Positions 1 to 64,000 are shown, numbered from the stretch's first letter. The stretch is 64,000 nt of DNA from Bilabrum cf. latius (GCA_965178125.1 OZ237751.1:434001-498000); one strand, 5' to 3'. Numbers and translations are program-made. Notes: generated by a model not told the origin, from the sequence alone.

Positions 1-650
1 ATGGCAACCTTCAGCTGCTCCTCGCGAGGCACGTCTCGGTGGGCGGGGACATGGACGAACTACGAGGTCGAGCACTTGCTCGAGGAGGTCAAGTGCAGGG
101 AGCTGTACAGCATGTAGTTGCATATGAACATGCCCGCATCATCGGTGCACTCGATTTTCTCGCGAGAGCTGCCGGCGCGCTCGTCTGCTCGCACGCAAGC
201 TGCCGCAAGCTTAGCGTCAACCTTTACTTGGAGAGTGTCCGGGGCGCTTGGCACCACTGGAACAGGAAACATTTGCGATTCGCCAGACTCGTCTGAAAAC
301 ATCCACTATGCACAATTTCTGCCAGTGCATTCGAGCCTAAAGTTGGGGTAGCCGTCATACACACCAAAATGGACGAGAACGGCGCGGTCGTGGGATTGCC
401 ACTGCGCCTTTAGCTGCTTCGCAACCGACACAAGCCCCTCCTTCACGCCACCCCTGCTAACATGAAGCACTTCTGCAGACGCCAGGTGCACGTACTCTGG
501 CAGAGAGCCACTGTCTTTTGCAAATAGGGCTTGGATGTCTTCAATCAATGCTGTAGTTGGGTTATTCTCGACACCATGAAACTTTCCGAACCCTGTAAGA
601 CACAGCAGGACGCGACCTTTCTCAGTCTATCGTTCAGCTACACCAGCCAT
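1..650 (-). CDS. Pyroglutamyl-peptidase I (peptidase C15); 3' end lies outside the window
   Basis: One frame from ATG 650: MAGVAER*TEKGRVLLCLTGFGKFHGVENNPT...VHFGV...FRLE...DDAGMFICNYMLY...TS*FVHVP. It has the C15 motifs (TGFGxF, catalytic E, C and H). In-frame TAGs at 627, 306 and 60 are read as Q. Confidence 0.9.
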
Positions 651-782
651 GCTGCGGTGCCTTTGCTGCGAGAATGAAAGATGTGCAAATACATTGAACC
701 ACCACTCATCACTGGTTGGCACTGCAACTGCCCAGGTGGGCAGCCCACCACAGCAAGACAGCACCACTGCTCCCATTGCAAC

Positions 783-3700
783 ATGCAGCAGTCGATATTT
801 ACAAACGATTTGAGCGAGGAGGACGCCGTAAAGCTCGTGCGGGAGGGAGCTAGCATCGCCTGCGTGGATGTGCCTCCGGGGACTTCGTTCGGGATCGACT
901 TGGCCAGCTTTTAGACAGGCACTGGATTCATGGGATTCAAGATGGTCCCACCAGGCGCACATTTCTTGTATTTTTCGTCCAAGAAGAAGGGGAATGGCTC
1001 CGCATTGGCCGAAGGAGACTCAATCGGCGGCTCCACGACGAGCCGGCAGGGCCTGTTCGTGTGGGCTCATCCGCGAGGTTCTCGCGCATTCCGCTGGTCC
1101 GCCCCCGAGGAAGATATTGATGATGAATCCTTGTTGCCTGGTGACCTCGCGTAGCGATGGAAGGCGTCTGCCCGTGCAGGCGCTCTGGATGGCCAGCTGG
1201 GTGCGTACCCCCTGCGGCTGCTCAAGCGCTGGCGCAACCTGACCGGCCACATATCTGATGACCTGCTGCATCGATTAGGCTCTTAGCCTGATAGAGAAGC
1301 GTGGCTGTCCCAGCGTCGAGCCAGGGACAGCGCCAGGTCCTCGAGAGCAGCCTATTTGAGCGAGCAGAGGGACCGGAAGCAATTGCGCGCCAGGCTCGCA
1401 CAAGCCGCGGCCCCAGAGCCGGCCGCGAAAGAAACTGCCGCGCAGGCCAGCATGCAAGACGATAGCGGTGAAGACTAGAAAGCAGCATTGCAGGCTCCCA
1501 GCGCGGCAGGAGGAGCAGCAATGGACCCCGAAGGGACAGGCGCCTCTGCTGCAAGCGCGCGGGCCCAAGACGACCGAGCCAGGGCCGCCATCGAGTCCAA
1601 GTACGGGACAGCCAGCCTGCCGCCCAACCATCTTCAAGGGGCGGACCCATCGCACTCGTCACATGCCCATGGAGCTGCAACCCCTGGCCGCGCGACGATG
1701 TCTCGCCCGTCCCCCGTTTCCAAGACGAGCAGTCCCATGGCGGATCTGCTATTCCCTGAGCTCGCCGAAGGTTCGCCAAAGGTTCCTCTTAACGCTGCGC
1801 ACAGGGGTTTTATGGCTGCGGGTGAAACAGAGACGAGGCACGTGGTGGGTCCGAGTCCGAGCCAGTCCCCGTTGCGCGGCGGTGTGGCTGATGCTGCGTG
1901 CACTGCAGGGTCTAGCGCGGCAGCGGTTGGCAGCAGTTCTGCAGCGCACGTAGGGTCCGCCAGGGGAGGGTCACCGGTGCCTTCATATTCGGTTTCTGCT
2001 GGAGCACCTTCCATGCCGCCGTCCGTAGCCATGGAAGCTGACGAGGCTGAGGACGGCCCGAGGGTGACGACCTCCCACGCAAGGGAGACAACCGGCGCGG
2101 AACTTGGACCGCTTGCTGGCAGCACTGGGGCTGCAAGAGATTCACGAGGCGCTGCCGGCCCCTTCATATCTCTAGAGGCATTCTTGGAACAGAAGAAGCA
2201 GGGTCCGCCGAAGCCAGCTGGCAGCGCGGCATCCAGCGGAGCAAGGGGGACACAGACGCCGCCAGCGACCGATTCCGACGCGACTGAGTCGCCAATCAGG
2301 ATAGGTCGCTCCGATGACGACCCCATGACCCGCCCAAACATGTACAGTGCCGACCCACCCGCGACACCAGAGGAGGCCGTCGCCAGGCAGCGGCTGAGGG
2401 AGCAGGCAAGGGACATCGATAGGAGAGACGACGTGGTCGCTGGGAGGGGTCCTCTAGTGTGCCTGGCCGCGTGCGGAGGCTCTGCTCTGCGGCTGATGCC
2501 CCTGCGGGGTATCGGCAGGGGTTCAATCCCTGAACATGTGACTGCGTGGGGGGTGGATCCGTCCGGCACGCTCCGGCACTGGATCCGGCAGCACGCGGAG
2601 TCTGCCGCCGGCGATTCGCTTGGCAGACAAACGCGCTCTGGACGATCATCATCCTCTTCTGCGGCGTCATGCATGGCAGATTCCGTTGGCACAGGTTTCG
2701 ATGCGTCTTCTGGCTAGTCGCCTGGCTAGCCCAGCCTGCCATCTGCAGCTCTGCGTGCGGGTGCCATCGGAGCGATTGGCGAGCTGCAGATTTCTTTCGT
2801 GTGCGCGCTCCTAGAGCACAGCAGGCAGGCCTTTCTTCATTGGCAGCGGCTGGTTGACGTTCTCCTTCGGTGCGACGAGGCCATTTGCGCTGCTGGAGGG
2901 ACTGGGGCCGCAGATGCTTCTGTTGGTGCGTCTGGCACGGTGTCGGCGGGTGCAGGCAACCCATCCATTCGGATGCATGCAGCAGCGGCAAGCACTCCAC
3001 CTGCCCATCTCTGCACGACAAGCGGGCAGCCGACGGAGCGCTGGTTCCTGCTCGCCTGGAAGGCGCTCGCCGAGCAGCTGCTCGAGCTGCCGGAGGAAGT
3101 CGTGCTCGGTCCGTTCGCGGGTAGGCTGCAGGGGCAGGACAGGATCAAGGATGGCAAAGCCGAAACTGGCAACTCAAGCAAGGCGTCCAGCACGGAGAAA
3201 GCTATGAAGAAATAGCACGGTAAGTTGGAATGTGCCGCAAGCAGTGGAGCCGGTGGGCAAGCCGCCATGGGCTCTGAGTCTGACGGGGAGTATGACGTGG
3301 AGGGGGACAAGGACCAGGCCGGCCTGGTCGATTCCGGGGATGAGGAGGAGTCTGGCGACGACGACGACATTGAAATGGAGGCACACGAAGGCAAACATGC
3401 TGTGGAAGAGGATGATTCCGACCATGCCATTGACCGGGATGCATTGAGGTCCTGGAGGGCTTCGCACTTCCTGCTGCGGCCTCTCGGGGCACTCTCGCGG
3501 TCCATCCGCGTCAATGAACGGCACGACGGGTCTCACGGAGGATCAGGCGCCGCTGCATGCGCATCACCCAGGCTGCAGCGAGCAGGCAAGGCGCTCATTG
3601 ACCTTGTGGCTCGCAAGTTTGGCCCCCTGGCCCAGGTGCAGGTACAGCAATCGGCACTCGGCGCACAGGCTTCCTCGCGCATGGACGGAGGCAAGGCGGG

Positions 3701-3836
3701 CATAGGCGAGCTTGGAAACAGGCTAGGAGATGGACAGGCTATGCACCCCACTGCTGATAGTGAGGACGAGGACGAGGCGCCTGTCGTTGTGGAAGTGAAC
3801 GAGAGCGGACAGCTGCTGTCTCACAAGATGTTCTGA
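783..3836 (+). CDS. AAR2: AAR2 (U5 snRNP assembly factor), about 1017 aa with long low-complexity insertions
   Basis: The ORF fragments starting at 681, 930, 1488, 2799 and 3225 share one frame and are separated only by TAGs (7). Motifs: FGIDLASF*TGTGFMGFKMVPPGAHF, LGAYP...RWRNLTGHIS, IGELQISFVC...AFLHWQRLVDVL, and C-terminal EDEDEAPVVVE. Ends at TGA. The start at 783 is inferred. Confidence 0.88.
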
Positions 3837-3924
3837 TACCAAGTGCTCGGGCTGCTCCAATCGAGTGGATATTTACAAATTAACATATTAACAGTGCCAC
3901 TTTCACGAGCACACGTGCTCGCTC

Positions 3925-5565
3925 TCAGTTGTCGTACCCGAGCGTGGCGTGCCTCGACTTGAGCAGCACAGCGCGGAGCAGGTCATCATCGTCTGCCTCG
4001 TCCTCCTCATCCTCCTCCTCGTCTTCGTCCTCATCGTGCTCATCGCCAGCACCAACCAGCACGCCACTCTCACCACCAGGCACACGTGCCTTGCTAGCAC
4101 TCGCTCCCTTGCCCGTCCCCCCAGCGGCCGGGTCATCATCGAGCAGCCCGCCAAGGTCATCCTCCTCAACCTACGGGCGAGCCTCTCGTCTGCTATGAGG
4201 CCCGCTGCCGCTGGAGCCGCCCTTCTTGCCGCCGGTCGTGAGGCCAAGCAGAGCCGATAGATCATCATCGTCCTCTTCCTCAACGACCCGGCGCTCGTTC
4301 ACCTGCGCCGCGCCGGCTGACGGTGCTGTTGCAGACGCCGACGCTGACGCTGACGCAGACGAGGACGAAGACTAGGACGAGGAGGAACGTTTCCCTGCGC
4401 TCCCCCCTTCAGCTGCCCCTCCGGCGCCCTCCTCCTCATCCTCGGACCCATCATCATCCGAGGAGGTGTCCCCCCCTGTTCCCTGGGCCTTCCTCCTGGC
4501 CTTCTCCTGCTGCAGGAAGCCCTTGACGTCCTCGCCCCAACCCTACTGCTTGCCCTCATTGATTCCGATGGCGAGGCTCAGCGCGGCTTGCAGCAGCGCG
4601 GGCCTTCGCTCTTGTTCCATCATGTACCTCTTCTTGATCTGCCTCCTGTTCCGGTGCGGCAGCAGCACGTTGATCATGGTCAGGTCGCTGCCGAACCGCC
4701 TCACGCCCTCATAGAACTTCTTGAGCTCGGGCTCCGTCCAACGCTTCTGGCCCTGGCTCTTGTTCCCCCGGCGGAAGCTCGCGCTGGTGCTCCGAATCTG
4801 CCCGTCCAGCTCATCTTCCTCCACCACCATGCGCTCGCCGCCCGCCTGCTCGTCCGCCGCGCCCGTCTGCAAGAGTCCAAGCCCGGAGCCGCGCTGCAGC
4901 ACCTCTGCGTCGGAGAGGAGAGTGAGCTAGCCGCCATCAAAAGAAAGGCTGGCGCTCAGAAGTGGCCCTGTCCGCTGTTGCTGGGCTGCTGTGTCATCCG
5001 CTGCGTCGGCGTCGGAGCCGCTGTCCTCGCCGGCCTCCCTCCGTCTCTTGCGCTCCTCCCTCTTTTTCTTGCGCTCTTCCCTCTCCCGCTATCGCATTGC
5101 TTCGTGGCGTTTCATGCCTTCTGTCAGCTCCCCGCTAGTTTCGTCCCAAAGCAAGTCGCGAATGCGGCGGACGGAGCCTTCCGCCATTCCTGTGACGCTG
5201 CTCGCCCCTGTCACGGAGCGGCGCCCGCCCCGTCCAGGGCCACCAAGGAGGGATCGATCAAACGTTGTCACAGAAGCACCACCTGATAGGACACTCGCGT
5301 CGTCGGCTCCTGCACGGCTCGCCTGTGCGCGAGACGACGGACGTCGCCTGTTCGGTGCGACAATTTGCATCCGGCGCGACCTTCCTCGACCACCCCCTGT
5401 CGGATGCAGCCTGTTTCGGCCTCGTACGGCGGCGCTGCCACGGAGCTGCGCGCTGGTGGCAGCGTTGCCACGCCTGTCTTCGTGCGAGGCCACGCGAGGA
5501 AACTTGTTCTGAACTCGAGAACCGCCATCCTACACTTCCGACCGCGCTCGTTTCTTGCCATGCAT
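3925..5565 (-). CDS. BDP1: TFIIIB subunit Bdp1 (B'')-like SANT/Myb protein, about 546 aa
   Basis: One frame from ATG 5565 to TGA 3925 with 6 TAGs. The SANT domain RWTEPELKKFYEGVRRFGSDLTMINVLLPHRNRRQIKKRYMMEQERRP is preceded by STSASF, as in Bdp1. Acidic C-terminal tail. Confidence 0.82.
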
Positions 5566-5711
5566 CGACAAAAAGTATTATAGTTTACTTTCTCAACAGT
5601 GTTGTATCCGTCAAATGCCCTTTTGTGAGGATCTCTCGTCATTTACCAAACGGCCGAGGAGGCGACAACTTCCGGTCTCGTCGCTCCGGCGCGCCGCACC
5701 CAGCCCCGTCA

Positions 5712-7206
5712 TCAGTACAGGTCGTAGAAGAAGTCGAGACCCTGACCGACCTCCCACATTGCAACCCCGACTCCCAATTCCTGCGCCAGCTGGTGCCTCT
5801 TTCGAATGCTGTAGAGCGTAGGGTACCACACCTGGTGCCGCTGCCGCGACGCTGCGTCCATGTACTCAAAGTAGTGCTCCTCGGCGTCATTGTCCAGCAC
5901 AATCCTTGGCTTGTGCTCTCGCAGCAGTTCCAGGTACTTGCTGCCTGTGATGGGCTGCCCGTTGTCGGTGCCGTACATGTTCAAACCGAGCAGGAGCTTG
6001 CGAGCAAGTGCTCGCCGCCCACTGCTCGCACCGCCAGTGCCGCGCGCCAGGCTACCGTCCGCCGACACCTACACCGCACCGTCCTCGTCCTCATCCTCCA
6101 GCCCGTCGCTGTCCCCTGCGGGCCCTAGCAAGGCTTCCACGCTCTCCTCCATCCAAGCGAGCGGGGCGTTGGGACCGACCACGCCCTTCCCCGATGAGTA
6201 GTCGTAGGTCATGAGGCTGAACCTGTCTGCTATCTTGGCTGCCTCTTTGAGGCCCTCGTGGTTGAGGCCCTGCAGCACCTGCCCGCTCTCGTCCTTGACC
6301 GTGGGGGGCAGAACCAGCACGAGCTCCAGCGGGGCGAGGCCCTTCCTCGTCCTCGTGGTCTCGGTTGCAACCTCGAGGGCCTGCTTGAGTGTGACGAGCC
6401 ACAGCAGCATGGGCCTGGACACGGGGGCCTCGAGGACGAGCCCGTCGAGGCTGTTGCTCACGATGACGTCAACGATGAGTGTCACGGCCCTTGCTTGCTC
6501 TGTCTCGCTGAGGGCACGGGCCTCCCAGACGAACCGGGGAACAACCTTTGGGCACTTGCTCGGGGGAGTGCCTGCACGTCGGCTGCCCGCTCGGGATGTG
6601 CTCGCGCACGGAGCGCGCACCGCCTTGATCCAGCCGCGATCGATGTCGTGCAGGCCAGTGATTGTCGCAAGGCCCTGCTCCGATTCGCGGATCTGAAACC
6701 ACACGGGAGCTATGTAGTCGAAGCGTTCGGCAAGAGCCTTCGCAACGTCATAACCGTGAGAATTCCTGCGAGTTGTGCCAGGTGTTGCGATAGAGTGCTG
6801 ACTGGTGGATCCATCAGAATGGCGGCAAGAACGCGTGCAGACCAGCTGTGGCCCCCACACGCGACACACAACAAACCCTCTCGCTTCGCAAGCAGTAGCA
6901 CTGCAGGCCATCGGCTCTCTCTTACCACGGCGTGACGTATGCAAGGGATTCTCCAGCAAACGAAAACTTAATGCTTCTCTTCGTAGTGACGTGGAAATGT
7001 TCAAGAGAAATCTGCCTCCAAGACTAGTGTCGCTTCACAGCGAACCGACCAGCGTTTGACTTTACCGGCGTAAGCGGTCTTTGATCGTCAGAATCGATGG
7101 CGTCGGATGCAGCAGCTGCTCGTCTCCGCTACCGCCTTCGAGAGGTGCATGGCTGCGGAAGCAAAACAGCCGCAGCCACAAGCACTAATGTACCCTTTGC
7201 AATCAT
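5712..7206 (-). CDS. CHID1: Chitinase domain-containing protein 1 (CHID1/SI-CLP)-like GH18 protein, about 444 aa, with signal peptide and one intron (6766-6925)
   Basis: Splicing out 6925-6766 rebuilds LAYVTPW|NSHGYDVAK. Other motifs: IAPVWFQ, LDGLVLE, FSLMTYDYS, GPNAPL, KLLLGLNMYG, EHYFEY, VWYPTLYSI, AMWEVGQGLDFFYDL. Hydrophobic N-terminus, 3 TAGs, ends TGA TGA. Confidence 0.92.
6766..6925 (-). other. Spliceosomal intron (160 nt) in CHID1
   Basis: GTAAG...CTCGCAG. Removing it restores the conserved YVTPWN motif. Confidence 0.92.
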
Positions 7207-7342: not shown

Positions 7343-8887
7343 ATGGCTGAAGATGCCAAGATGCTCGAGGACATGTATTTGGAAGCTTGTAAATCAGAGT
7401 CACTTCCAGCACCGCGACCCGAAGTGATTTCGGCTGCTCGCGGGCGAAGAGCAGGGTCTGCCAGTGGAGGCGACCTTGCAAGTATCCCGGCACTTTCACT
7501 AAATGGGTCGCACCACTCAAGGTTTCGCAACAGAATCAATGATGGGGACATTAGCGCTATAATTTCTACGATTCTCCCACGAGATGATGCGGTTGTCGCG
7601 ATTCTCTTGGGAGCTGATTTCAGCTGCAACCGTATTTCCGATGTCGGGGGGCTCAAGCTGGCGACTGCCGTAGCATCAGGAGCACTACGATCGCACCTGC
7701 ATCTCCGTGCCAACGATATTACCCACAAGTCGGTGGAAGCACTGGCAGACGCGCTGACATCTCCATCCTGCGACCTGCGGTCGCTAGACCTGTCTGGCTG
7801 CAACGTCGGGAAAGAGGGCGCAGTGGCGCTCGCGAATGCGATACGGAAGGGAACACCCCTGGAATCACTGCTCCTCAACGGCGCCGAGCTCGAGACGACG
7901 GGCCTAATCGATCTCCTCTCCTCCATACGAGACCTGTCGGTTGAGGCGGCCGGTGCCTCGATGGCTGGAGAGGACCTCCCCTCCGTCTCGAGCGTGCCTT
8001 CTTCCTCCTCCTCCCCCTCCGAGCCAGCAGCCGCAGCCGAGGAAGCCGCGTCCTCGGAGCTTCCCGCATCATCGGGGCACGCGACCTCGGGCTCGGGCAC
8101 TGGCACTGGCACTGGCTCGGGCACTGGCAGGGCAGGGGGGGGCGCACTTCGCCTGCGCCGGCTGGAGCTGGACAACCCCCGGCTGTTCGCGACCACCGAG
8201 GACACGACGTACCACTGTGCCAGGGCCGTGTCCCGCAACAGCTCACTGCAGTGCCTGAGCCTCGAGAAGCAGCCGCACGCCTCCAGCACAGGGGCGGAGG
8301 TGCTCGCCGCTGCGCTGGAGGAGCACCCGGGGCTGCGGGAGCTTCGGCTGGGCTGCAACCGGCTGGGGCCCGATGGTGTTGGCGCCCTGGCCCGGCTGTC
8401 CGTGGCCAACCCGCTCATCCGGAGCTATAAACTGGACTGCACCCACGGGTGCGATCAGGGGGCGGCGGCCTGGGCTGACGTGCTGGTGGCCGGGTCCGGC
8501 GCGGAGCGGCTGGACCTGCGGTCGTGCGGGATGCGAGACGGAGGCGTGTGCGGGATCTTGGAGTCGATCGCGCGCGCGGCCACGGAGGAGACGGTGGCGC
8601 GGGGGTGGCGGCTGCGGCGCGTGCTGCTATGGGGGAACGAATTCGGCCCTCGGTCGTGCAAGATGGCGGTGAGTCTTTTCGAGGCGGGTGCTCTGGTCCC
8701 AGTGGGGGACGCTGGCAGTGGCGGGGCTGGGGCTGGGGCTCGGGTGTCGGGCGCGGGAGGGGCGGACGGGAAGGGGCCTGTGGGTGGCTCGTCCATGGGA
8801 AATGGCGGGGGCGCGCTGGTGCGCGTGGAGGTGGATGTGCGTCCATTCGTGGCGGACGATCGGGCGCAAGTGGCGCATTGCGCGTGA
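7343..8887 (+). CDS. LRRC34: Leucine-rich repeat protein (RNI-like), LRRC34-like, 514 aa
   Basis: Uninterrupted ORF with RNI-type LRRs (LRSLDLSGCNVGKEGA, LRELRLGCNRLGPDG). The C-terminal LLWGNEF...DVRPFVADDRAQVA resembles LRRC34. No TAG; ends TGA TGA. Confidence 0.8.
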   Translation: MAEDAKMLEDMYLEACKSESLPAPRPEVISAARGRRAGSASGGDLASIPALSLNGSHHSRFRNRINDGDISAIISTILPRDDAVVAILLGADFSCNRISDVGGLKLATAVASGALRSHLHLRANDITHKSVEALADALTSPSCDLRSLDLSGCNVGKEGAVALANAIRKGTPLESLLLNGAELETTGLIDLLSSIRDLSVEAAGASMAGEDLPSVSSVPSSSSSPSEPAAAAEEAASSELPASSGHATSGSGTGTGTGSGTGRAGGGALRLRRLELDNPRLFATTEDTTYHCARAVSRNSSLQCLSLEKQPHASSTGAEVLAAALEEHPGLRELRLGCNRLGPDGVGALARLSVANPLIRSYKLDCTHGCDQGAAAWADVLVAGSGAERLDLRSCGMRDGGVCGILESIARAATEETVARGWRLRRVLLWGNEFGPRSCKMAVSLFEAGALVPVGDAGSGGAGAGARVSGAGGADGKGPVGGSSMGNGGGALVRVEVDVRPFVADDRAQVAHCA

Positions 8888-9139
8888 TGACGACGACCTC
8901 AACAGCGGCGAGGATCTGGTGATTGCTATGCAACAGCACAATCGTACCGATACTACGTGCATATTAAACTTCGAATTGTCCAAACAGCGGCAAGTGTAAT
9001 TGCTTGATTGGCGGCGTAGCCAGTTCGGCTCGTGCAAGTCCGGTGTCCGATCCGTCCACAGAGTCTTCTGGTGGTCTCAAATCCCTCCCAGAACTAGCAA
9101 AATCCATTCTGGTAGAGTCACACAAGTGCTGGTCCACTG

Positions 9140-54300: not shown

Positions 54301-57300
54301 CAGGAGGTTGCTGCGGGATCTGAATCTACGTACCGTTCTGTTCTGGCATCTGTGCTAGCAACTGTATCGCAGGCCGTAGACGCTGACTGGTCCCAGATTG
54401 CCGAGCTGTCGCGCAACCGCAACGAGTCCTTCCAGCAACTTGTGCAGGACGGGTCCCCGTTCCTCTCGCAGCAGGAGTCTGTAGAGCAGCTAGCAGCTGC
54501 AGTGCAGCCCCGCTCTCGTATTCGCCGCAAGCAGGTTGGTGTGCTGTTGAATGTGCTTGCAGCAGTGTTCGGTGGCGTGGGTTTAGAAGCACTCGGTGTT
54601 GCAAGCATGCGCAGAAGAGGGGCTGTGGCTTCACCGCATGCCCTCCGAAACGATCCGGTAGCCTTTGCGAGAGAGATAGCAGAGGAGAGTGGAAGCATCC
54701 TCAGGCAGGTGCTCTTGCTTCATGCCCAGAGCGGAGATGTTGACAGGCTGCTTGCCTCTGGGTCGAAGCCAGGCGCTGGTAGCAAGAGGTGGGGCACCCC
54801 GGGATCGATCCCCAGGCCTCCTTCACGGCCCCGAGCTCCGCCCCAGCGGCAAGGGCTCGGCGGGATGCCTGGCCTCAGAATCAATACGAATGCTCTCGAC
54901 AGAAAGGACTCGAATGTTTCGCAGATGACGCCCGGGGGCGGGCTAGGGCTGGGGTCGCCATCGGCGCATTTGCACAGGTACCGCAAGGCCATTGCAGCCG
55001 TCTCTGGCAAGCCCATCCGCCCGTCTCCTCGAGCAAAGCCTATGCTTCGCACCCTTAGCACAACGAGCATGGATGCACGGGAGTCTGCCGCCGAGCTGAT
55101 TCAATTCGATCCCAAGAGTCTGGTAGCTGTCCTGACTGGTAGGCAGCAGCTAACGCAAGCGTTGCAATCGCAGCCTCGGGGCAGTGCCATAGCCGGAAGG
55201 GTGCAACCTGTCCTGCTGGGCACGCGATATCTCACGCCGATTACATCGTGCTACAAACGTGGCGACCGAGTTGTTGTTCGAGTTCCAGGCCGAGAGTCGT
55301 TCCGGGGAACCGTACTGGAGTCGCATCCCGATGGCACCTACGACGTGAGGCAGGACAAGCCGCCTCCGGGCGACGAGCGCAGGCGGTTAGATAGAAACAT
55401 TGCCCGGCACAAGCAGGCATCGAAGAACCACGCGCAACCAGGATCGTCACACTAGAGGAGCTCAGCGTCGCTGGCCTCCTCCGCCGTCACCGGGCGAACG
55501 CCCGAATCCACAAGATCAGGTGCTGGCGCTCGGCCTAGCGTGCGCGCGGGCAGCCATTGCAAGTCGCCTTTGTCTGCAAAGCACTCGCAGATGCAGAACT
55601 AGGGATCCATGTGGGGCAGTGGTGACATTGACAGTCTGGCCCAGGGCAGCACAGCCTCGGGGTCGACCCAGAACACCTCACTAGCGCCTCGCACGCCCAC
55701 CGGTGCAATGACCCCAACAGCCAGGTCGCCGGGCAGGAAACTCACGCGCGAGAGCTCCATGCACAGAAAGTCTAGCTTCAGGCGGAAGCGTTCGTCAAGA
55801 AAGCTCGTTGATAGCAAGCCGAAACCAGCCAAACCCCTGTCACTCGCTCAATAGGCCAGCCGCATCTCCATCAGCACGGCCGACCTGCAGGTGCAGTCCA
55901 TGGTGCTGCAAGTGCAGAACCAAACCCCGGTCGCGTCACTCTTTGCGAGCGTTGGCATCTCTGAGAGGAAGACAAGCCATGGCAGCACGTACTACGTCGA
56001 GCTTGGGTTGCATCCAAAGTACATGCGAGAGGAGAAATCGGCATACCTGTTCGGCCTGCGCAAGATCCAGGCAGGCATGCGGCGCGTGCCTCTGCTGGCG
56101 ATGCTTCAAGCGATCGAGGACGATCCCTTGGATTGGTAGGCGTACGTATTTGCCGTTGATATATTGCTGTCCATGGGAAGGAAAGAGGAGGCATCTGCCC
56201 TTGCACAGCGGGCTGTTGCCCTGCACCCTCACATTTTCGAGACCCGTCGCGCTCTCGGGCTGGCCCACCTCAAGTGCGGGCACCTGCGCGATGCGGTGAT
56301 GCACTTGCGTGTAGCAGTGCGCATTGACCCCAGCAGCGAAGCGGCGCTGCAGCTGCTGTGGGAGGCCGAAGCGAAAATGAGGAACCTATCAAGGTCCCGG
56401 CAGAAGCAGATGCTCATGAACGCCAAGTACAGCCACGGGCAGCGACAGCGCGACCGCGCTGCCAAGCTTGACGGACTGTCTAGTTCCATATCCGGAGCGC
56501 ACAAAGTTTCTAAAGAAATGATGAAGAAAGGTACCGACGCTGCGAACCGTCTTGCACAGCGCTCTGGTGGCATACCTCTAGAGCAGCTCGAAGTGCCGGA
56601 CCCAGTGTCGATCAAGAACGTGATGCCTTCCTTGGCACGCCTGGTTTTGCTAGAATACGTGAAGCCCCTTTCCAAAGGGCCGCACGTGGCATTTGCTCAT
56701 GGCTCTGTCATGGATGCGCACGCCCTGCGCATGTACACCAGCGACATGTCTGGCTCGGCCTCTTATGCTGGCCTGCAGGCTCCGATCATGCGGCCAACCG
56801 ATGGACCGCACACCGGAGAGATCCTCAGGTACTACGGCTAGCATAGCATGGCTGACAATGCCTCTTCACGGTCAGACATAGCGAGTTAGGGCGGGTTAAA
56901 GGATAGGGTGCAGGCATTCGTAGCATCGGGGGATTTCGGATACCGTCGCGATGCATTCGTGTCAGCTGCTGGCAGGCGCGCAGTTGGCGGAGATGCCGTC
57001 GCTGCAGACCAGTCTGCCGGACTTGAGGTGGTGGCATGCCTCTCCAGGCACAGATTCTCTGCAAATCTAGTGGAGTAGTTCGCCGTGGCGAGGGAGGCTA
57101 GGGCGGGGCTTGGGCAATCAACGAGCAGGGTCAGCATTCAGTCCAATCCTAGGTCTCCGGCACAGGCTCAGATGCTCTCACCGTCGCAAGACCGACTGCT
57201 GGCAAGGAGACGCAGAGCTTCCCATCTCAGGCAGCGACTCGCTGCGATGCAGAGCGATTCGCTCGATACTGCGCTGGGATTAAATCATTCAGTTGCGAGG

Positions 57301-60300
57301 CAGAGTAGGCGAACCAGCGAGGCAGCGGCCTTCGACCCGGAGCTCTGGCTCCGCAGCGTGTTCAGCTCGGAGACGCGGTAGAAGACGAGGCGCGGACTTG
57401 ACAATCCCCTGTCCGGGTAGCACTCCAGATCGTGGAGAAAGCTCAATATCGTCAAGGAAGTAGGTGCGGCTGCCACGCAGATCCAGAATGTCATTCCCGA
57501 GGACGGCGAGCTGGACGTGTTTGGGCAAGATGATCACCTCGGAGACGTTGAGGCTGAGGCAAATCGGATTTGGTTGCTTCATGCGAGGGGTTCATCGTTG
57601 GATGAGGTAGGTGTCGCAGTTGAGACCGTGCTACGTCGACGGCCGTTGCTATCCATGCACGCTCTTCGTAACAGCTTGCGTGTTGTGCGCGAGAGGTGGA
57701 GCAGCAGGCAGCCGGATGCCGTCCATGAGGATGTGGATCGCTCCCGCTCCGATGGGAAGCCGACGTACGCCAACCCAGCCCTGACTCCCAAAGAGGGCCG
57801 TATGACTCCAAGGCACAAGCTCCAGGCAGAATCGATCATGTCGACCAGAAACAGAGCAATGTCAACTAGAACAAAGGCGCATTTCTGGGGCGATCACGCC
57901 CCAAGTTCCTAGCAAGACGGCATGTTGACTGTGCGGGGCATCCCTGGGGTGCAGAAGGCCGGCGGGGGGCAGGGGCAGCAGCTCGCTACCACAGTGCTCA
58001 TGGGTCTCGATGATGCTGCCAGGTCATCGCAGCGGTCGAGCGCCGGCGGGTCAGCCGGTGGCCGCCGTGGCGCCCGGCGGTCCAGCATTGTGGATGCTGC
58101 CGAGCGGTAGAAGCGGGACCGGAAGCTGTTTGCTCTGTTCTCTATGGCTTCGGCGGTACTTCCGCACGCGGGCCCGTCCAAGCATGCGCTAGCTCTCGTG
58201 CGAGTCGTCCAGCCGTGGCAGTTCGTCAGGCTTGGCTGGGTCGGTGAACGGATTCGGGCGCTTGCTGCCGCTTCGTTGCTAAAGCCTAACCGACCCACTC
58301 TGCCGAAACCTGTTCCTTCGAGGCGCCCGAAGCCCCCGGTGTCCCAGCGTCCGAACCGGGCTCTATCGAGGAAGGCCTCACTGCTGAGGCGCATGCGAGG
58401 CGCTGCTAGAACTGTGCAGACGCTCGTGTCATTCGGTAGCGCAAACAAACGGTCCAAAAAAGACCCGTCTCAACCTTCATTGGCGCCGAAGAGGTCAATT
58501 TTGTCCTAGATGGGCTCGAGCGTGGGTGCGTCGCCGACTGCCGTTGCACCGACCACCTCGGCCACTGGATCAATAGTACACCAAGTAGGGGTCTCCAAAG
58601 CCTCAAATGTGACAAGTGTTCGAGTGTCGGGCTCTAGTACAAGCAGCAACAACAAGGTCCTTGGCTTGAGCAGCTCCAAGAGTCCCGGATCAGGTGGGTC
58701 GCCGGAGAGTCGCTCGAGCAGCCCCGTGAAGGGGATTCTGAGGAACTCCAGCCCGAAAGCAGGTCCAAAGGAAGTGAGGTTGGCAGTTTCTCTTGATAAG
58801 AGTGAAGTCCCTGCGATTTCTGCAGCAATCGCGTCAAAGTGGCAGCCATGGCTGGCGCTGAAGCGCATCTGTGCGGTGCTGTTGGCCATGGCTGGCAGCG
58901 AGCTGGAGCCGGCCTGCGTCGATCTTCTAAACGCAGTGAGCGACAACACCCGGCGCAATGTGATCTCATGGCTACATCAAGAATATCGAAGAAGTCTCAA
59001 GAAGGGGGCCGCCGCCGGTGGTGGCATCGGCAGTGTGACCAGATCGAGACCCCTTCTGAAGCGGCTCACAAAGGTGCTCTTGGCTTCTATGCCCTATTCA
59101 TTGTCCAAGCGAGCAACAGAGGCGCTACAAGCAACCGACAGAGTCGGTCCAGGGCTATCGTTTGCAGTGGCAGACCAGGGCGCCGACCGTGCCATGCAGT
59201 TCATGGCAGGCTGGCTGCAGCCGACGATGCCGTCATGGTCTGCGGCTGACGCTGGCACCGAGACCTTCAAGACTAGCACCCAGCTTGTCTGTGGCGACGT
59301 GCTGGTGGAGGCGGGGACACTTGGAGCCGCAGACGAAGACATGCTGGAGATAACTCCAACGAACGCTTTCTTGGACGCCATCGATGCCGGCCTGGTCCCC
59401 GAGTCTGTCCCAGGCACGGCTCGCAACGTCCGCGATGCACTCGCTGATGCGTGGTCGCCCGTCTCAGATACGAGCGATGCTATCATTCCAAAGCACAACG
59501 CAAGCCAAGCATGGCTGAGACTAGTCCTTACTGGTGCTGACGAAGCCGAAGGCGAGAATGCATGGCACGATCGCGCGCTGGCGACTGACACGGTGCCCGA
59601 CGAAACCGTAGTACCGGCCCACGCAGTTGTGCGCCACGCGCGCGTGCAGGCTTGGGTCCGGGCTGCGCTGGACACAGAAGCAGCCGAACGAGTAGAGCGA
59701 GCCGCCGGAGTGAAGGCCGATGCGTTGTCTGCATCAGCCAAGCGATTCCGGTAGCACCACGCGGCCAGTGTGGCGGAGGCCGTTGGCATGCGGATCGATG
59801 TTCTGGGCGGTCTATTCGATGGACATGATGTGTCAATTCTGCACAGCTCGCCTTCGGTCGAGTCACGGATTTCCACTCCGCTTCGTCGAAAGACTGGAAG
59901 CCCGAGCGTTTCGGAGCTAGTCGCACAGACAATGTCCATGCGAAAGCGACGCAGTAGGCTCAGCATCGGTCTGCCGTCGTTTTGGGTCGGAAACGGCGCG
60001 CATCCTATGCTTGTGAATGGCATTCAGGCGAAAGGAAGCATGACGAAGGGGTCAAGGACAGACTAGGCCAAAGAGGCTGCGGCCCTCCAGCGCAAGCAAG
60101 CACTGCAGCAAGCAACTCGAGCCAGGTCACTCAGCGCTAACAGGGACGAACCAAGCTACCGGCCTTCAGGTGACATTGCAACGACGGAGAATGATGTACC
60201 GCCGGGGCCCATGGTAAAGATTCGTTCGTTCACTGGGGAAGTTTTGCGTGGAGCAACCCCAAGCGACCAGGTCGAGACCACGGAGGTCTCACCGCTCGTG

Positions 60301-63300
60301 GCAGGTTCCAGCCGTTTGATTCGGACCACGAGCATGAAGCGCGGTGCCATGGCAACGAATTCCAGCTCTCCTGGATAGGCCAGCCTCCAAGCATCACCAA
60401 GCAGAGCAGATTCACCGGATAGCGACGGGGCAGATGCGTCATCTTCCATGCAGAATATGCTGGCGTCGAACCTCGAGAAGCACCTAGTGCGTGCGCAGTC
60501 CTTGCAGGAGGTGCTCGAGAACAAGGACGCGGGCAGGGGATTCGAGCAAGGATACGAGCAAGCCAGAGGAGAACGAGCTGCGACGCAGCAGCGCTTGCGG
60601 CGCGGTGATGGGGCGCAAACTCCGCAGTTCCGTGGGGATGATGAGCAACCTCTGAATGCGACAACGGGTTCTGCTACCTTGGATGAGGAAGCCACGCCTG
60701 GTGTTGTAGCTGAGAAGGAAGATGATGAGTTGAGTGGCAAGGGTGAAGATTTAATGGGCGGTTTCGAGGACGTAGAGGATGACACCCCGAAGCCTTCGCC
60801 GAGCACGGAGGAGTTGCTGGACGATGCTACCGGAGTAATCGGTTTAGATTCAGAAGCGTCTGGGAGTTCTCGTAAAGCTGGTGGCGAGTCAAACGACGAT
60901 CCAGAGGCTGATGATTCGTCCGACGATTCGTTGGACGAGCTGGACGTGAGCTTTGCATCGTCAGTGGCGATTCCAGCGAACGGTCTGCAGGCCGATGAGC
61001 TGGGGCTGCTTGACATCTCCGACGTGCATGCGGATGGCCGAGACAGGAAACACAAGAAGCACGGATCCAAGAAAAGCAGAGATAAGGAGAAGGACGATGC
61101 ATCCAAGTCGCAAGCTAGTAGCAGCGATTCAGGCTCATCTTTAGGCAGCCGTCCGAGCAAGACCAGCAGCAACCGCAGCAAGAAATCAGGGCTACAGGCT
61201 GCGTTCGATGCATTTGAGTCTGATTCTGAATAGAGCAGCAGCGAGGCCTCCCAAAGAGACAACGATGATCCTACACTGGACAGAGGAGGGGGTAAGCGCT
61301 TGCATCGCAAGGCAAGTAAAAGATAGCGGAACCGTCGGCCGGGCAGCAAAGGCGACATGAAGCGACCAGCCAGCGTGCGAGCCATGTCGCGAGGCTCGAC
61401 CCGCGCTCAGCTCACGAGCAGTCCTCGAGGCCACCGAGTCCGCACACGGGCAGAAACACTGGCAAGTGCCACTGCCAGTGGGTAGGAGACCGTGCGGGGC
61501 GACAGACGCCACTCGAAGTCCCACCGAAACCGCAAGCGAACGAACTCGGAGGACAGCTCTGGCAGCGGCAGCAACACAGGCTCTGACTCGGAAGAGAGCC
61601 TGGATGATGAGGGCAAGAAAGTTCTTCGGAAAGCGTTCGGTGCGAAGGATCGTGGCTCCATGCATTCAGATGACGGCTCGGGCGAAGACAAGGAGCAGAT
61701 GGGCGGGGCAGCCGCAGACAAGCGCAAGGACCACGATGACAAGCAGCATCGCAAGCACGGTAGAGGTTCAAAGAAGCAGAAGGGAAAGGGTCACGCTGAC
61801 GGTCAGCAGGCTGGGTCAGTGGCTAAGCAGCAGAGAGACATCATCAACGCTCAGCTGCAGGCGCTCACGGGAGCCGGGAATGACAGCGCACGGGCCGCGT
61901 CGGCCCAGTCCTTCCGTCTGGGTAGCAGAGCAGGAAGCAGTCGTGCGCCAGTCAAGGTAGGCGAGACTGGAAGCTCGGGGCAGGTGCGCGACGAGGATCT
62001 GGATGTGGACGTGGACGAGCTTGTGGAAGATGAGGACCTGGACGAGGAGGACGAGCCGAATGCTGGATCGAAGAAATCCTCCTCGCCCAGGGCAAGACAC
62101 GGCAGCAGCATGCGTGCAGGAAGCATGCGGGCCGGCTCATCGCATTCAAAGCACCGCAGCAGGTCCGGATCAAGAGAGAGCCGATCCGGAGCTCGAAGTC
62201 CGCGCATTGCTCAGTATTCTGCGGAAGGAATCCGCATCGAGCCTGACCACGGCAGAGGTGCCAGTGCAGGCCCAGACAGGAGTGTTTCGAATCAGCTAGT
62301 TTCAGCCATCCAAACTGGGGAGCTTTTTGTTGCAAAGAAGCCGGGCAAGTCGTTGCTTGCTGCAGACTCTGCAGAGTCTCAGCCTGGAACGAAGGACGAG
62401 TTTGGGCTAGTGCGCCTTGGACAGGGGCAGGGGTCAGCAAGCGGTGCTGGAATGGAGCCAAAGATTTCTCTGTCTCAAATGCAAGCAGACGAGCTTATTG
62501 AGGCAGGGACGAGGACCGTTGGTGGCAAGATTAAAGGCAAGAGCAAGGGCAGACGCCGCTCAATGTCTCGCCGCTCTTCCATGCAACGGAGCAAAGCAGC
62601 TCTGTTCGAGAAGCGAGAAAAACGGGCACAGCGACGCTTCTCCGTTGCTGTCGCCAACACATCTTCTGTTCAGAGACTGAGTCACATGAAATCTACCGCG
62701 GCATCAAAAGCAGCAGACTACGGAACTGGGATGCCCACGCGATTTCGGAAGCAGAGGAGGAGGGCATCCATCGCAGCGACGGGCGGCAGGCTGCTTCAGA
62801 GCGAGACGGGTCAAGTCAAGAATTCCCGTGCTAAGACGAAGGCTGTGGTGGTCAGGATGATGCTAGCGAGCAAGGCATAGTCCTAGAAAGACGGCTCCAA
62901 ACCAGAGCATTCTCCCTCGACCGCACCCGCCGCAGCCAAAGCCAAGTCTGGGCGGTAGCTTCCCAAGCTTGCCATCAAGATCGCTGACCCAAGCGCAGCT
63001 GCTGCCGGGGCCAGCAGCAGCACCAAATCGAAGTCGGCTGCATCCTCGTCTGCCGCAGCGCGTCATCAGAATCAGAATCGGCACCACGAGCAGCCCATCC
63101 ACTCGGCCGATAAAACGGCCCAGGCTCTGGACGGACTCGCTAGGCAGCGCAACTCCGATTGGATCTCCGAGCAGATCGGCGCCAACGAGGACTGCTTACC
63201 TTCCGCACTCAAGAAGAAACTCAGGTTGCTTGCTCAGGAAGTGGCGGCCGGCTCACACGCCGATGTGTCGAAGAGAGTTGAAGAGGCAGCGGCGGCAAGC

Positions 63301-64000
63301 CACAAGATTGCCAACTCCAAAGCATCTTCTGGGGCAAGCACTGGCAGTGCAGGCAGCAAGCATTACTGGGATGCAAGAGCTCCGATAGAGGCTGAGGGCT
63401 CGCAAGGGATGAGCCCCGCAAGCAGCCTGGGTGACGTAGTTTCGTTTGCAATCCAGAAGACTCTGGGAACGGCCGATGCGGCCCTTTCAAAGGCGAAGCC
63501 ATCAACCGTCGACGGCCAGGACGGAGAGCCTCCAGAGGACGAATCACTGCTGAACGATCCTGTCGCGCAGCACAAGGCCGATGCGCTTCGAAAAGACAAA
63601 GATGAGCGGCTGCACAACCGGATTGCGCTGGCATGCGCCACCCCGTTCTCCCGGGGAGTCAATCTAGCTGTCATAGACGACCTATCCAGGGCTTCCTTCA
63701 TCTCTTACTATGAGAGTGGAGAATATGGCCGGGGCGTGAAGCTGGCATGCAAGATTACCAAGCGCTATCTAAGGTCTCTCGTGCGCCCAAGTGAGATTGC
63801 GCAGCGGGCGAAGCAGGCAGCTGAGCTGTCTCAGTCTATGGGTGGTGGCCTCGGCATGGCGGGCAAAGGACGCAAGCTGGGTGCAGGGGCTGGGCACGCA
63901 GCCGCGCGGGGCCTCCGGTCAAGGCCCGGCTCCAAGCAGCGGGTGGTAGTGATCGATGTTGATGACACGGCTCTCAGCAGCTACCAATACATGCTTCGAA
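51370..64000 (+). CDS. Giant intronless protein (>4200 aa, continues past the window) with Tudor-like, TPR and HAD acid-phosphatase (class IIIB)-like domains
   Basis: Sixteen track ORFs (51835 to 61492) lie in one frame with about 29 TAGs and no TAA/TGA. Tudor-like YKRGDRVVVRVPGRESFRGTVLESHPDGTYDV (~55250-55357); TPRs (~56095-56370); ISYYESGEYGRGV...RYL...VVVIDVDDTALSSY (~63700-63990). Confidence 0.8.

What the first reader, a model, noticed from the sequence alone, without database searches (positions are those of the whole stretch)
1..64000. Variant nuclear genetic code: UAG encodes glutamine
Seen in sequence: about 120 in-frame TAGs (hand count) interrupt 20 of 23 genes on both strands, with the frame preserved each time. 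TAG falls at positions I recall as conserved Gln: YjjX SDVPD*P (48943; family SGVxxQP), FAD oxidoreductase GKV*AFNLR (46762; family VQAYNFR), GH29 YLHG*LREI (45215; family xxQLxEL) and Bdp1 DGG*L (4927). It also replaces CAG inside repeats: (CAG)5-TAG-CAG at 14477-14497 and CAG CAC CAG CAC TAG CAC TAG CAC at 20530-20553. Inference: UAG is a regular Gln codon in this genome. I know of no such report for a Cafeteria-like stramenopile, but both the taxon and the novelty are unverified.
Basis: partly seen in the sequence, partly recalled or inferred. Interest (0 to 1): 0.97.

Follow-up and report, generated by a model that had tools for sequence, protein, structure and literature searches.

The report
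UAG read as glutamine, nuclear genes
This stretch of GC-rich protist nuclear DNA uses the stop codon TAG as an ordinary glutamine codon while keeping TGA and TAA as stops, a rare kind of genetic code seen so far in only a few unrelated eukaryotes.

Summary
I count 125 in-frame TAGs in 21 of 23 long ORFs (19,581 codons). All four cited TAG sites and both repeat sites sit in frame at the stated coordinates.

Reading TAG as sense raises the longest frame from 622 to 4,233 codons. Reading TAA as sense changes nothing.

TAG aligns with conserved Gln:
- FAD oxidoreductase: 113 of 120 homologues
- GH29 fucosidase: 57 of 84
- YjjX-type NTPase: 4 of 4 solved structures

A small profile-based codon inference gives Q +9.2 bits, next H -3.7.

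The ORFs end in TGA (19) or TAA (2), and TAA shows no sign of sense use.

Contigs of a second study keep all 29 TAGs they cover, unchanged. One of them lacks a 128-nt GT..AG intron, so it is cDNA-like. Editing, splicing-out, assembly error and pseudogenes are therefore unlikely.

The taxon is unresolved, and nothing supports "Cafeteria-like". Composition and stop usage argue against Amoeboaphelidium (about 40% GC) and Iotanema.

UAG=Gln with UAA kept as stop is a known kind of code. This looks like a new lineage carrying it. tRNA-Gln(CUA) and eRF1 could not be examined.

The parts
3..962 (-). ORF, pyroglutamyl-peptidase (Peptidase_C15)-like, runs off the window start; 3 in-frame TAG
681..3836 (+). 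ORF, AAR2 spliceosome-assembly factor homologue; 7 in-frame TAG; ends TGA
3925..5571 (-). ORF with Myb/SANT (Bdp1-type) domain; 6 in-frame TAG including 4927-4929; ends TGA
5712..7004 (-). ORF, GH18-like; 1 in-frame TAG; ends TGA
7343..8887 (+). ORF, leucine-rich repeat protein; no TAG; ends TGA
9008..10336 (+). ORF, six C2H2 zinc fingers; 6 in-frame TAG, all N-terminal of the fingers; ends TAA (10334-10336) with non-coding-like sequence downstream
10670..12097 (+). ORF, ankyrin-repeat protein; no TAG; ends TGA
12479..14764 (+). ORF without Pfam match; 5 in-frame TAG including the one inside (CAG)5-TAG-CAG at 14477-14497; ends TGA
14821..21609 (+). Ion-transport channel gene of two exons (14821-18017, 18141-21609); 12 in-frame TAG including the two in CAG CAC CAG CAC TAG CAC TAG CAC at 20530-20553; ends TAA (21607-21609)
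18018..18140 (+). Predicted 123-nt intron, GTGAGT..GCAG. Removing it joins the two halves of the Ion_trans domain into one open 2,221-codon frame
   Evidence: predicted from sequence; no RNA laid here
22710..27836 (+). ORF, G8 + CEMIP beta-helix protein; 6 in-frame TAG; ends TGA. A 96%-identical database fragment ends exactly before codon 1113
28023..29366 (+). ORF, Abhydrolase_11 domain + RGG repeats; 2 in-frame TAG, both in the domain; ends TGA
29737..31770 (+). ORF, paralogue of the next gene; 6 in-frame TAG; ends TGA
32103..34703 (+). ORF, RING-between-RING (IBR) ligase; 7 in-frame TAG; ends TGA
35019..36197 (-). Kelch-repeat gene, second exon (the ORF's own ATG lies in the intron); 1 in-frame TAG; ends TGA
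36152..36279 (-). 128-nt intron, GTGAGC..GCAG, absent from contigs of runs X5 and X6 and present in run X1
36850..38544 (-). ORF without Pfam match; 3 in-frame TAG; ends TGA
38860..40698 (-). ORF without Pfam match; 11 in-frame TAG; ends TGA
40806..43328 (-). ORF, protein kinase + armadillo repeats; 2 in-frame TAG; ends TGA
43640..45880 (-). ORF, GH29 alpha-L-fucosidase; 3 in-frame TAG. The one at 45215-45217 (codon 222) sits in a column with Q in 57 of 84 homologues
46006..48108 (+). ORF, FAD-dependent oxidoreductase; 3 in-frame TAG. 46762-46764 (codon 253) is Q in 113 of 120 homologues. 47584-47586 (codon 527) has Q as the commonest residue (39 of 120) and Q in the 45% orthologue
48235..49095 (-). 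ORF, NTPase_I-T (YjjX family); 2 in-frame TAG. 48943-48945 (codon 51) aligns with Q in 4 of 4 solved structures
49233..51479 (-). ORF without Pfam match; 10 in-frame TAG. The last TAG (codon 728) is followed by only 20 codons of low GC3, so its reading is open
51370..63999 (+). Giant ORF of at least 4,209 codons that runs off the window end; 29 in-frame TAG, no TAA or TGA

Best explanation
The window is nuclear DNA of a GC-rich (61%), gene-dense, intron-poor eukaryote. Its translation system reads UAG as glutamine at about 14% of Gln codons (125 TAG, 570 CAG, 186 CAA). UGA is the main terminator and UAA a minor one.

Shown here:
- TAG is a sense codon inside genes that are under selection and transcribed.
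- The residue that best fits TAG is Gln.
- TAA and TGA are not read through.

Inferred from known cases, not seen here: UAG is decoded by a dedicated tRNA-Gln with anticodon CUA, which pairs with UAG but not UAA. In addition, eRF1 carries changes in its N-terminal domain that weaken recognition of the third-position G, so termination at UAG is lost while UAA and UGA are still recognised.
For: 1. Frames. The longest frame is 622 codons under the standard code, 4,233 with TAG as sense, and unchanged with TAA as sense. The 23 ORFs cover most of the window, and 16 of them have Pfam matches. 18 of the 125 TAGs lie inside the matched Pfam stretches.

2. Residue identity.
- FAD codon 253: Q in 113 of 120 homologues.
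- FAD codon 527: Q is the commonest residue, 39 of 120.
- The 45%-identical full-length orthologue P0001 has Q at both FAD sites.
- GH29 codon 222: Q 57, H 17 of 84, and Q in 3 of 3 PDB alignments shown.
- NTPase codon 51: Q in 4 of 4 PDB alignments.
- Codon inference on three alignments, using the 4 TAG columns with at least 30 residues: Q +9.2 bits, next H -3.7, E -4.5. The same procedure recovers the standard meaning of 56 of 58 sense codons.
- Pfam score with each of nine residues placed at TAG in four domains, summed against X: Q +5.2, H +3.4, S +2.3, E +1.1, K +0.3, Y -0.5, R -1.4, L -2.8, W -5.5 (sums mine).

3. Context. The base after TAG (A .19, C .31, G .35, T .14) matches that after CAG (.20.33.35.13). 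TAG also interrupts CAG runs.

4. Stops.
- 19 ORFs end in TGA and 2 in TAA.
- Sequence after both TAA codons is non-coding-like: score -0.09 and -0.10 per codon and GC3 0.50 and 0.47, against +0.05 to +0.33 and 0.55 to 0.81 in the ORFs.
- Coding-like flanks on both sides: TAG 56 of 938, TAA 4 of 340, TGA 12 of 1544. All TAA and TGA cases are antisense to genes.
- With 186 CAA and 206 CGA codons in frame, a C-to-T process would also have produced in-frame TAA and TGA.

5. Not an artefact.
- Run X1 contigs match at 44 of 44 in-frame TAGs in 32001-52000.
- Listed zero-difference contigs of run X5, which comes from another study, cover 29 of those 44.
- X5 and X6 contigs are gene-sized, and one lacks a 128-nt GT..AG segment that X1 keeps.
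- In a roughly 92%-identical relative (X7), 31 of the 39 listed differences inside three ORFs are third-position and synonymous.

6. Mechanism. In Tetrahymena, tRNA-Gln(CUA) reads UAG but not UAA. Iotanema eRF1 carries a T32G change in the GTS motif. Both come from passages of PMC5304391.
Against: - Only 4 TAG columns were deep enough for the formal inference. Two of them (CEMIP codons 527 and 1113) are variable, with Q in only 2 of 63 and 4 of 86.
- GH29 codon 530 has no Q among 16 homologues.
- AAR2 codon 78 aligns with E in the one solved homologue.
- The ion-channel domain scores better with Y, S, H or L than with Q (Q 54.8 against Y 58.0).
- Peptidase_C15 marginally prefers E and S.
- Only nine residues were tried in the Pfam test.
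- TAA as terminator rests on two genes.
- The tool itself labels X5 'RNA? (probably DNA)'. Contigs drop rare variants, so low-level editing cannot be excluded.
- No tRNA gene lies in the window and no whole genome is held. The tRNA and eRF1 steps are therefore untested.
- One ORF (49233-51479) has a short, low-GC3 tail after its last TAG. This leaves room for occasional termination at TAG.
Confidence: 0.86

Rival explanations
1. Both UAG and UAA encode glutamine (the table 6 type seen in many ciliates, ulvophytes, oxymonads, diplomonads and Amoeboaphelidium). TAA is simply rare because the genome is GC-rich, and UGA is the only stop.
For: UAG and UAA usually change meaning together (abstract and passages of PMC5304391). 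TGA ends 19 of 21 ORFs and TAA only 2. TAA is the rarest stop triplet in every frame.
Against: - There are no in-frame TAA in 19,581 codons, although CAA is used 186 times.
- Reading TAA as sense merges no gene-like ORFs.
- Sequence after both TAA-ended ORFs scores as non-coding.
- TAA codons with coding-like flanks are at the background level, 4 of 340 and all antisense, like TGA at 12 of 1544.
Confidence: 0.05
2. UAG is a sense codon but stands for another amino acid (His, Glu, Ser, Lys, Leu or Tyr).
For: - Several TAG columns are not Gln-rich: CEMIP 527 and 1113, and GH29 530.
- AAR2 codon 78 aligns with E.
- H is second in both tests.
- The ion channel prefers Y.
- UAG=Leu, Ser and Glu are known elsewhere (PMC11687900 passages).
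Against: - The three strongly conserved columns are all Gln: 113 of 120, 57 of 84 and 4 of 4.
- Q leads the summed log-odds by 12.9 bits.
- Q leads the summed Pfam scores.
- TAG replaces CAG inside CAG runs and shares CAG's downstream-base profile.
Confidence: 0.03
3. Ambiguous code: UAG is mostly glutamine but also terminates some genes depending on position or context, as in Condylostoma, karyorelicts or Blastocrithidia.
For: The ORF 49233-51479 has only 20 codons of low GC3 (0.25) after its last TAG. Gene ends were defined by reading through every TAG, so a true TAG terminator would go unnoticed.
Against: The stretch after the last TAG scores as coding in 21 of 21 ORFs. TAGs are spread along the ORFs without piling up at the 3' end, with decile counts 21, 13, 13, 13, 11, 10, 14, 14, 8, 8. 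Every complete ORF reaches a TGA or TAA.
Confidence: 0.05
4. The TAGs are not translated as such. They would instead be pseudogene lesions, C-to-T sequencing or assembly errors, sites of U-to-C RNA editing, or parts of small introns.
For: CAG-to-TAG is a single transition. X1-X4 may be the very data the window was assembled from, so their agreement is not independent.
Against: - Only TAG, never TAA or TGA, interrupts the frames, despite 186 CAA and 206 CGA codons.
- The substitution pattern against a relative is that of genes under selection: 31 of 39 differences are synonymous third-position changes.
- Contigs of an independent study, cDNA-like at this locus, keep 29 of 29 covered TAGs with no gap or change.
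- The frame is preserved across all 125 sites.
Confidence: 0.01

Closest known systems
UAG=Gln with UAA and UGA kept as stops: Iotanema spirale (Fornicata), Protocruzia tuzeti and two phyllopharyngean ciliate lineages (PMC5304391, PMC11687900; passages read)
   Same: Only UAG is reassigned and it goes to glutamine. UAA still terminates. In-frame UAG falls at conserved Gln positions.
   Different: This genome is 61% GC and uses TGA for 19 of 21 gene ends, whereas UAA is the predominant terminator in Iotanema (passage). It is a 64-kb multi-gene stretch with spliceosomal introns. From general knowledge, that is unlike typical AT-rich ciliate macronuclear DNA; I did not test this here. Lineage unknown. 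tRNA and eRF1 not seen.
UAR=Gln codes (NCBI table 6): many ciliates, ulvophyte green algae, Hexamita, Streblomastix, Amoeboaphelidium protococcarum (PMC11687900, PMC6299283; passages)
   Same: [quoted passage not shown]
   Different: TAA is not used as sense here. Amoeboaphelidium genomes are 40.5% and 39.9% GC (Table 1 of PMC10608142), against 61% here.
Genetic code 15 in gut phages (UAG=Gln; PMC9523058, search listing and abstract only)
   Same: The same formal code table.
   Different: Those are phage genomes that switch code during infection. Here the genes are eukaryotic (AAR2, Bdp1-type Myb, RBR ligase, voltage-gated-type channel) and have GT..AG introns.
Other UAG-only reassignments: UAG=Leu in a rhizarian and some ciliates, UAG=Ser in Scotinosphaera, UAG=Glu with UAA=Lys in one ciliate (PMC11687900 passages)
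   Same: The meanings of UAG and UAA are uncoupled.
   Different: The amino acid differs. Leu, Ser and Glu all score below Gln here.

Membership tests
UAG=Gln nuclear code with UAA and UGA as stops (Iotanema / Protocruzia / phyllopharyngean type; formal table 15) | In-frame UAG inside genuine, selected protein-coding genes | tested here: met
   125 TAG in 21 of 23 ORFs. 18 lie inside Pfam-matched stretches. 31 of 39 differences to a relative are synonymous third-position changes.
UAG=Gln nuclear code with UAA and UGA as stops (Iotanema / Protocruzia / phyllopharyngean type; formal table 15) | UAG columns in homologue alignments are enriched for Gln over every other residue | tested here: met
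   Q +9.2 bits against H -3.7 on 4 columns, with controls 56 of 58. Q in 113 of 120, 57 of 84 and 4 of 4. Few columns, and two of them uninformative.
UAG=Gln nuclear code with UAA and UGA as stops (Iotanema / Protocruzia / phyllopharyngean type; formal table 15) | UAA is not a sense codon and terminates genes | tested here: met
   0 in-frame TAA in 19,581 codons. 2 ORFs end in TAA with non-coding-like sequence after it. Flank test 4 of 340, at background. Rests on one 64-kb window.
UAG=Gln nuclear code with UAA and UGA as stops (Iotanema / Protocruzia / phyllopharyngean type; formal table 15) | UGA terminates genes | tested here: met
   19 of 21 complete ORFs end in TGA. Flank test 12 of 1544, all antisense.
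UAG=Gln nuclear code with UAA and UGA as stops (Iotanema / Protocruzia / phyllopharyngean type; formal table 15) | UAG is present in the mature mRNA (no editing, no splicing-out) | tested here: met
   Listed zero-difference contigs of run X5 cover 29 of 44 TAGs. The same run lacks a GT..AG intron. These are contigs, not raw reads, and the run's RNA nature is inferred.
UAG=Gln nuclear code with UAA and UGA as stops (Iotanema / Protocruzia / phyllopharyngean type; formal table 15) | A tRNA-Gln gene with anticodon CUA | not testable with these tools
   No tRNA in the window by ARAGORN or Rfam. No whole genome is held.
UAG=Gln nuclear code with UAA and UGA as stops (Iotanema / Protocruzia / phyllopharyngean type; formal table 15) | eRF1 N-domain changes that weaken UAG recognition | not testable with these tools
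   eRF1 is not in the window and the genome is not available.
UAR=Gln code (NCBI table 6) | In-frame UAA as well as UAG at Gln positions | tested here: not met
   No in-frame TAA. TAA-sense reading lengthens no gene-like ORF.
Ambiguous stop/sense codes (Condylostoma, karyorelicts, Blastocrithidia) | The reassigned codon also ends genes | tested here: inconclusive
   None of 21 ORF ends requires TAG, and tails after the last TAG score as coding in 21 of 21. One 20-codon tail is doubtful. No translation data.
   Among the organism-named best hits of two genes, one is a stramenopile (the chrysophyte Epipyxis). The rest are amoebozoans, a choanoflagellate, a diplonemid, sponges and a malawimonad, at 34-46% identity. 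Two genes only, and no rRNA.

The most novel reading that the evidence does not exclude
This would be an independent and so far unreported origin of the UAG-only glutamine code. The host would be a GC-rich, TGA-terminating protist that is neither a ciliate nor a fornicate, and for which DNA and cDNA-like data already exist. Close environmental relatives seem to share the code. A 96%-identical database fragment stops exactly at one of the TAG sites. A 91% fragment starts just after another. A 61% relative is itself known only as a 168-residue piece of this 1,708-residue protein. If so, a whole clade, not one species, has uncoupled UAG from UAA.
Probability: 0.5. Interest if true: 0.78.

Novelty: new member of a known kind. 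Interest (0 to 1): 0.64.

Why it matters
Nuclear code changes are rare. Changes that separate UAG from UAA are rarer still: passages of PMC5304391 and PMC11687900 list only a handful. Each new lineage tests whether the same two steps recur, namely a tRNA-Gln(CUA) and a change in eRF1 where it contacts the third-position G.

A GC-rich genome is an unusual setting for this code, and I inferred two consequences. First, TGA is the default stop, so losing TAG as a terminator costs little. Second, CAG-to-TAG transitions are frequent, which may be how the codon was captured.

There is also a practical point. Gene callers using the standard code will cut almost every gene of this organism into pieces. 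Database fragments P0137 and P0173 already look like such pieces.

Tried and rejected
- Whole genome: not held. No genome-wide inference and no tRNA or eRF1 search was possible.
- tRNA and Rfam scans of the window: nothing found.
- AAR2 N-terminal domain in the search for homologous proteins: no hit passed.
- PDB searches: FAD and Abhydrolase_11 gave no hits.
I dropped AAR2 from all later searches, so its two in-domain TAG columns remain judged from one PDB alignment only.
- Metagenome scan with the FAD alignment: 80 loci, all 23-30% identical and of bacterial type. No close relative, and P0001's own contig was not returned.
- CEMIP-like search: 150 homologues, but the two alignable TAG columns are variable and uninformative.
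- Tandem RBR paralogues: too diverged (240 of 649 identical). TAG pairs with H, E, R, S, N and others, which decides nothing.
- RNA runs: no listed holder is on record as RNA. The RNA nature of X5 and X6 is my inference from the spliced joint.
- Read-laying output: it showed only 40 of 558 differences, so I could not see what the 92% relative X7 has at the TAG sites.
- Taxon: names of 30 best homologues of two genes were scattered across eukaryotes, so the taxon is unresolved.
- Literature: searches for a report of this code in a stramenopile, aphelid or other non-ciliate lineage found only the known cases. The aphelid genome paper (Curr Biol 2022) is not held.
- Supplements: closed. The eRF1 alignment of PMC5304391 (Additional file 6) could not be seen.
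- Considered and rejected: a giant virus or phage using code 15. The genes are eukaryotic housekeeping types with GT..AG introns.

Full report
WHAT IS THERE

The window is 61% GC throughout. Under the standard code no frame stays open for more than 622 codons. Reading TAG as sense gives frames of 4,233, 1,730, 1,184, 1,083 and 1,052 codons. Reading TAA as sense leaves the longest frames unchanged.

The TAG-sense ORF list yields 23 long, mostly non-overlapping ORFs on both strands. They hold 19,581 codons in all and 125 in-frame TAGs, and 21 of the 23 carry at least one. Sixteen of these ORFs match Pfam families. The families are eukaryotic in character:
- AAR2, Bdp1-type Myb, RBR/IBR ligase, kinase plus armadillo
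- ankyrin, LRR, C2H2, Kelch
- G8/CEMIP, a voltage-gated-type ion channel
- GH18, GH29, Abhydrolase_11, Peptidase_C15
- a FAD oxidoreductase and an NTPase of the YjjX family

Eighteen TAGs lie inside the matched stretches. Two ORFs are exons of one ion-channel gene. A 123-nt GTGAGT..GCAG intron at 18018-18140 joins the two halves of the Ion_trans domain into one open frame of 2,221 codons.

IS IT MORE THAN CHANCE OR ERROR?

Off-frame, TAA plus TGA occur about 20 times per 1000 codons. A 4,210-codon frame free of both cannot be chance (about 1e-37, my arithmetic).

Only TAG interrupts the frames. The ORFs hold 186 CAA and 206 CGA codons but no TAA or TGA. A C-to-T mutation, damage or editing process would have produced those too.

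Public runs were laid on 32001-52000.
- Run X1 matches at all 44 in-frame TAGs of that stretch. It may be the window's own source, so this is not independent.
- Run X5 comes from another study and carries another organism label. Its listed zero-difference pieces cover 29 of the 44 TAGs.
- X5 and X6 contigs are gene-sized and end near ORF boundaries, and their depth differs more than tenfold between genes.
- In both X5 and X6, one contig skips 128 nt that X1 retains.

I take this as cDNA. The tool itself marks X5 'RNA? (probably DNA)', and contigs hide rare variants.

Run X7, a protist metagenome, holds a relative about 92% identical. Of its 39 listed differences inside three ORFs, 31 are third-position and synonymous and 8 change the residue. 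The interrupted frames are therefore under purifying selection and are not pseudogenes.

WHICH AMINO ACID?

I translated TAG as X for all searches, so the answer was not built in.

Alignments with homologues:
- FAD oxidoreductase, 120 homologues: codon 253 is Q in 113, M in 6 and E in 1. Codon 527 has Q as the commonest residue (39, then G 18 and S 17, with 28 gaps). Codon 334 sits in an insertion and says nothing.
- The one close orthologue, P0001 (45% identical over its full length), has Q at both alignable FAD sites.
- GH29 fucosidase, 88 homologues: codon 222 is Q in 57 and H in 17 of 84. Codon 530 is V, S, A, K, P or T in 16, with no Q.
- The three PDB fucosidase alignments shown and the four YjjX alignments shown all place Q opposite the TAG.

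Formal inference. I summed column log-odds for every codon over the three alignments. The 4 usable TAG columns give Q +9.2 bits, H -3.7 and E -4.5. The procedure recovers the standard meaning of 56 of 58 sense codons that have at least 4 columns.

Pfam scoring. I scored four Pfam domains with each of nine residues placed at TAG. Values are in bits:

| Domain | Q | Other scores | X |
|---|---|---|---|
| NTPase_I-T | 144.7 | next K 141.8 | 140.9 |
| Abhydrolase_11 | 91.9 | H 91.6 | 90.1 |
| Peptidase_C15 | 31.9 | E 32.3, S 32.1 | 31.3 |
| Ion_trans | 54.8 | Y 58.0, S and H 56.9, L 56.4 | 55.8 |

Summed against X, Q leads (+5.2), then H (+3.4) and S (+2.3).

Results against Gln:
- The ion-channel domain prefers several residues to Q.
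- The two CEMIP columns have Q in only 2 of 63 and 4 of 86.
- GH29 codon 530 has no Q.
- AAR2 codon 78 aligns with E in human AAR2.

These are variable columns, where any general Gln codon is expected to land. No TAG falls on a column that is conserved for a residue other than Gln.

Context agrees with Gln. The base following TAG has the same distribution as the base following CAG, and TAG interrupts CAG runs.

WHAT ABOUT TAA AND TGA?

Nineteen ORFs end in TGA and two in TAA. Downstream of both TAA codons the frame scores as non-coding: -0.09 and -0.10 per codon with GC3 0.50 and 0.47. The ORFs score +0.05 to +0.33 with GC3 0.55 to 0.81.

In an unbiased scan of all six frames, I counted stop triplets with coding-like sequence on both sides. 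The counts are TAG 56 of 938, TAA 4 of 340 and TGA 12 of 1544. Every TAA and TGA case lies antisense to a gene. TAA therefore behaves like TGA, as a stop.

Whether TAG ever terminates cannot be settled without translation data. The stretch after the last TAG scores as coding in 21 of 21 ORFs. One tail is only 20 codons long with low GC3.

HOW IT MOST LIKELY WORKS

Shown: TAG is a sense codon, best read as Gln, in transcribed and selected genes, and TGA and TAA are stops.

Inferred from the known cases: a tRNA-Gln with anticodon CUA, and an eRF1 that no longer recognises UAG. A tRNA-Gln(CUA) reads UAG and not UAA in Tetrahymena. Iotanema eRF1 has T32G in the GTS motif, at the residue that contacts the G of UAG. 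Both points come from passages of PMC5304391. Neither component can be looked for here. The window holds no tRNA and no genome is available.

COMPARISON WITH WHAT IS KNOWN

UAG=Gln with UAA retained as stop is reported for Iotanema spirale, Protocruzia tuzeti and two phyllopharyngean ciliate lineages. UAR=Gln is reported for many ciliates, ulvophytes, Hexamita, Streblomastix and Amoeboaphelidium (passages of PMC5304391, PMC11687900 and PMC6299283).

This window fits the first type on every feature I could test.
- It is unlikely to be Amoeboaphelidium. Those genomes are 40.5% and 39.9% GC (Table 1 of PMC10608142), and TAA is also sense there.
- It is unlikely to be Iotanema, where UAA is the predominant terminator.
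- A 64-kb GC-rich multi-gene stretch with spliceosomal introns does not look like ciliate macronuclear DNA. That point rests on general knowledge, not on a test here.

The taxon stays open. Organism-named best homologues of the CEMIP-like and GH29 genes are amoebozoans, a choanoflagellate, a diplonemid, a chrysophyte, sponges and a malawimonad, at 34-46% identity. Nothing points to Cafeteria.

Nine literature searches found no report of this code outside the lineages above. The library lacks most subscription journals, and supplements were closed.

RELATIVES

Three database fragments suggest that relatives share the code.
- P0137 (96% identical, 164 residues) ends exactly before CEMIP codon 1113.
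- P0173 (91% identical) starts 7 residues after codon 527.
- P0246 (61% identical) is a 168-residue piece of a protein that has 1,708 residues here. It has P at codon 1113.

These look like standard-code gene calls cut at in-frame stops. I could not fetch their DNA. Against a shared code in all relatives, the orthologue P0001 runs 642 residues without a stop.

VERDICT

I add that only UAG is reassigned. This is a known kind of code variant in what appears to be a lineage not yet reported to carry it. The mechanism is inferred by analogy, and the organism is unidentified.

Noticed in passing
window 9641-10203: An 87-bp unit repeated 6.5 times at 98% identity encodes six nearly identical C2H2 zinc fingers. 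All 6 TAGs of this ORF lie upstream of the repeat.
   Followed up: partly
window 29737-31770 and 32103-34703: Two neighbouring same-strand genes are diverged paralogues (240 of 649 aligned residues identical) that share a nearly identical 45-residue block. Only the second keeps the IBR/RING2 end.
   Followed up: partly
window 51370-63999: A single open frame of at least 4,209 codons runs off the window end. It is low-complexity and rich in Ser, Ala and Arg, and its only Pfam match is one weak TPR. Its start overlaps the start of the minus-strand ORF 49233-51479 by about 110 nt, so one or both true starts lie further in.
   Followed up: no
window 36670-37336, 42006-42672, 50010-50676: Summed contig depth jumps 10- to 500-fold in all four runs. 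This probably reflects short GC-rich low-complexity repeats (for example the Pro-Ala run) that attract contigs from elsewhere. Many of the listed 'joints' start or end there.
   Followed up: no
window 33611: All four runs, X1 included, read G where the window has C. The site is carried on a 71-nt contig that bridges two longer ones. It is probably an allelic bubble or a consensus slip in the window.
   Followed up: no
window 18018-18140 and 36152-36279: The only two introns recognised are alike: 123 and 128 nt, GTGAG at the 5' end and GCAG at the 3' end. Genes otherwise look intron-free.
   Followed up: partly
window 43640-49095: A secreted-looking GH29 fucosidase, a secreted-looking FAD oxidoreductase of a mostly bacterial family (xanthan-lyase-related names among its hits) and a YjjX-type NTPase sit side by side. 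The FAD gene's only close relative is one unnamed eukaryote-like orthologue. It may be an old acquisition from bacteria.
   Followed up: no
window 28951-29124: A 12-bp unit repeated 15 times encodes an Arg-Gly-Gly repeat tail on the Abhydrolase_11 protein. The overlapping +1 frame is also open and reads as GRGK repeats, which produced a spurious second ORF (28646-30235).
   Followed up: no
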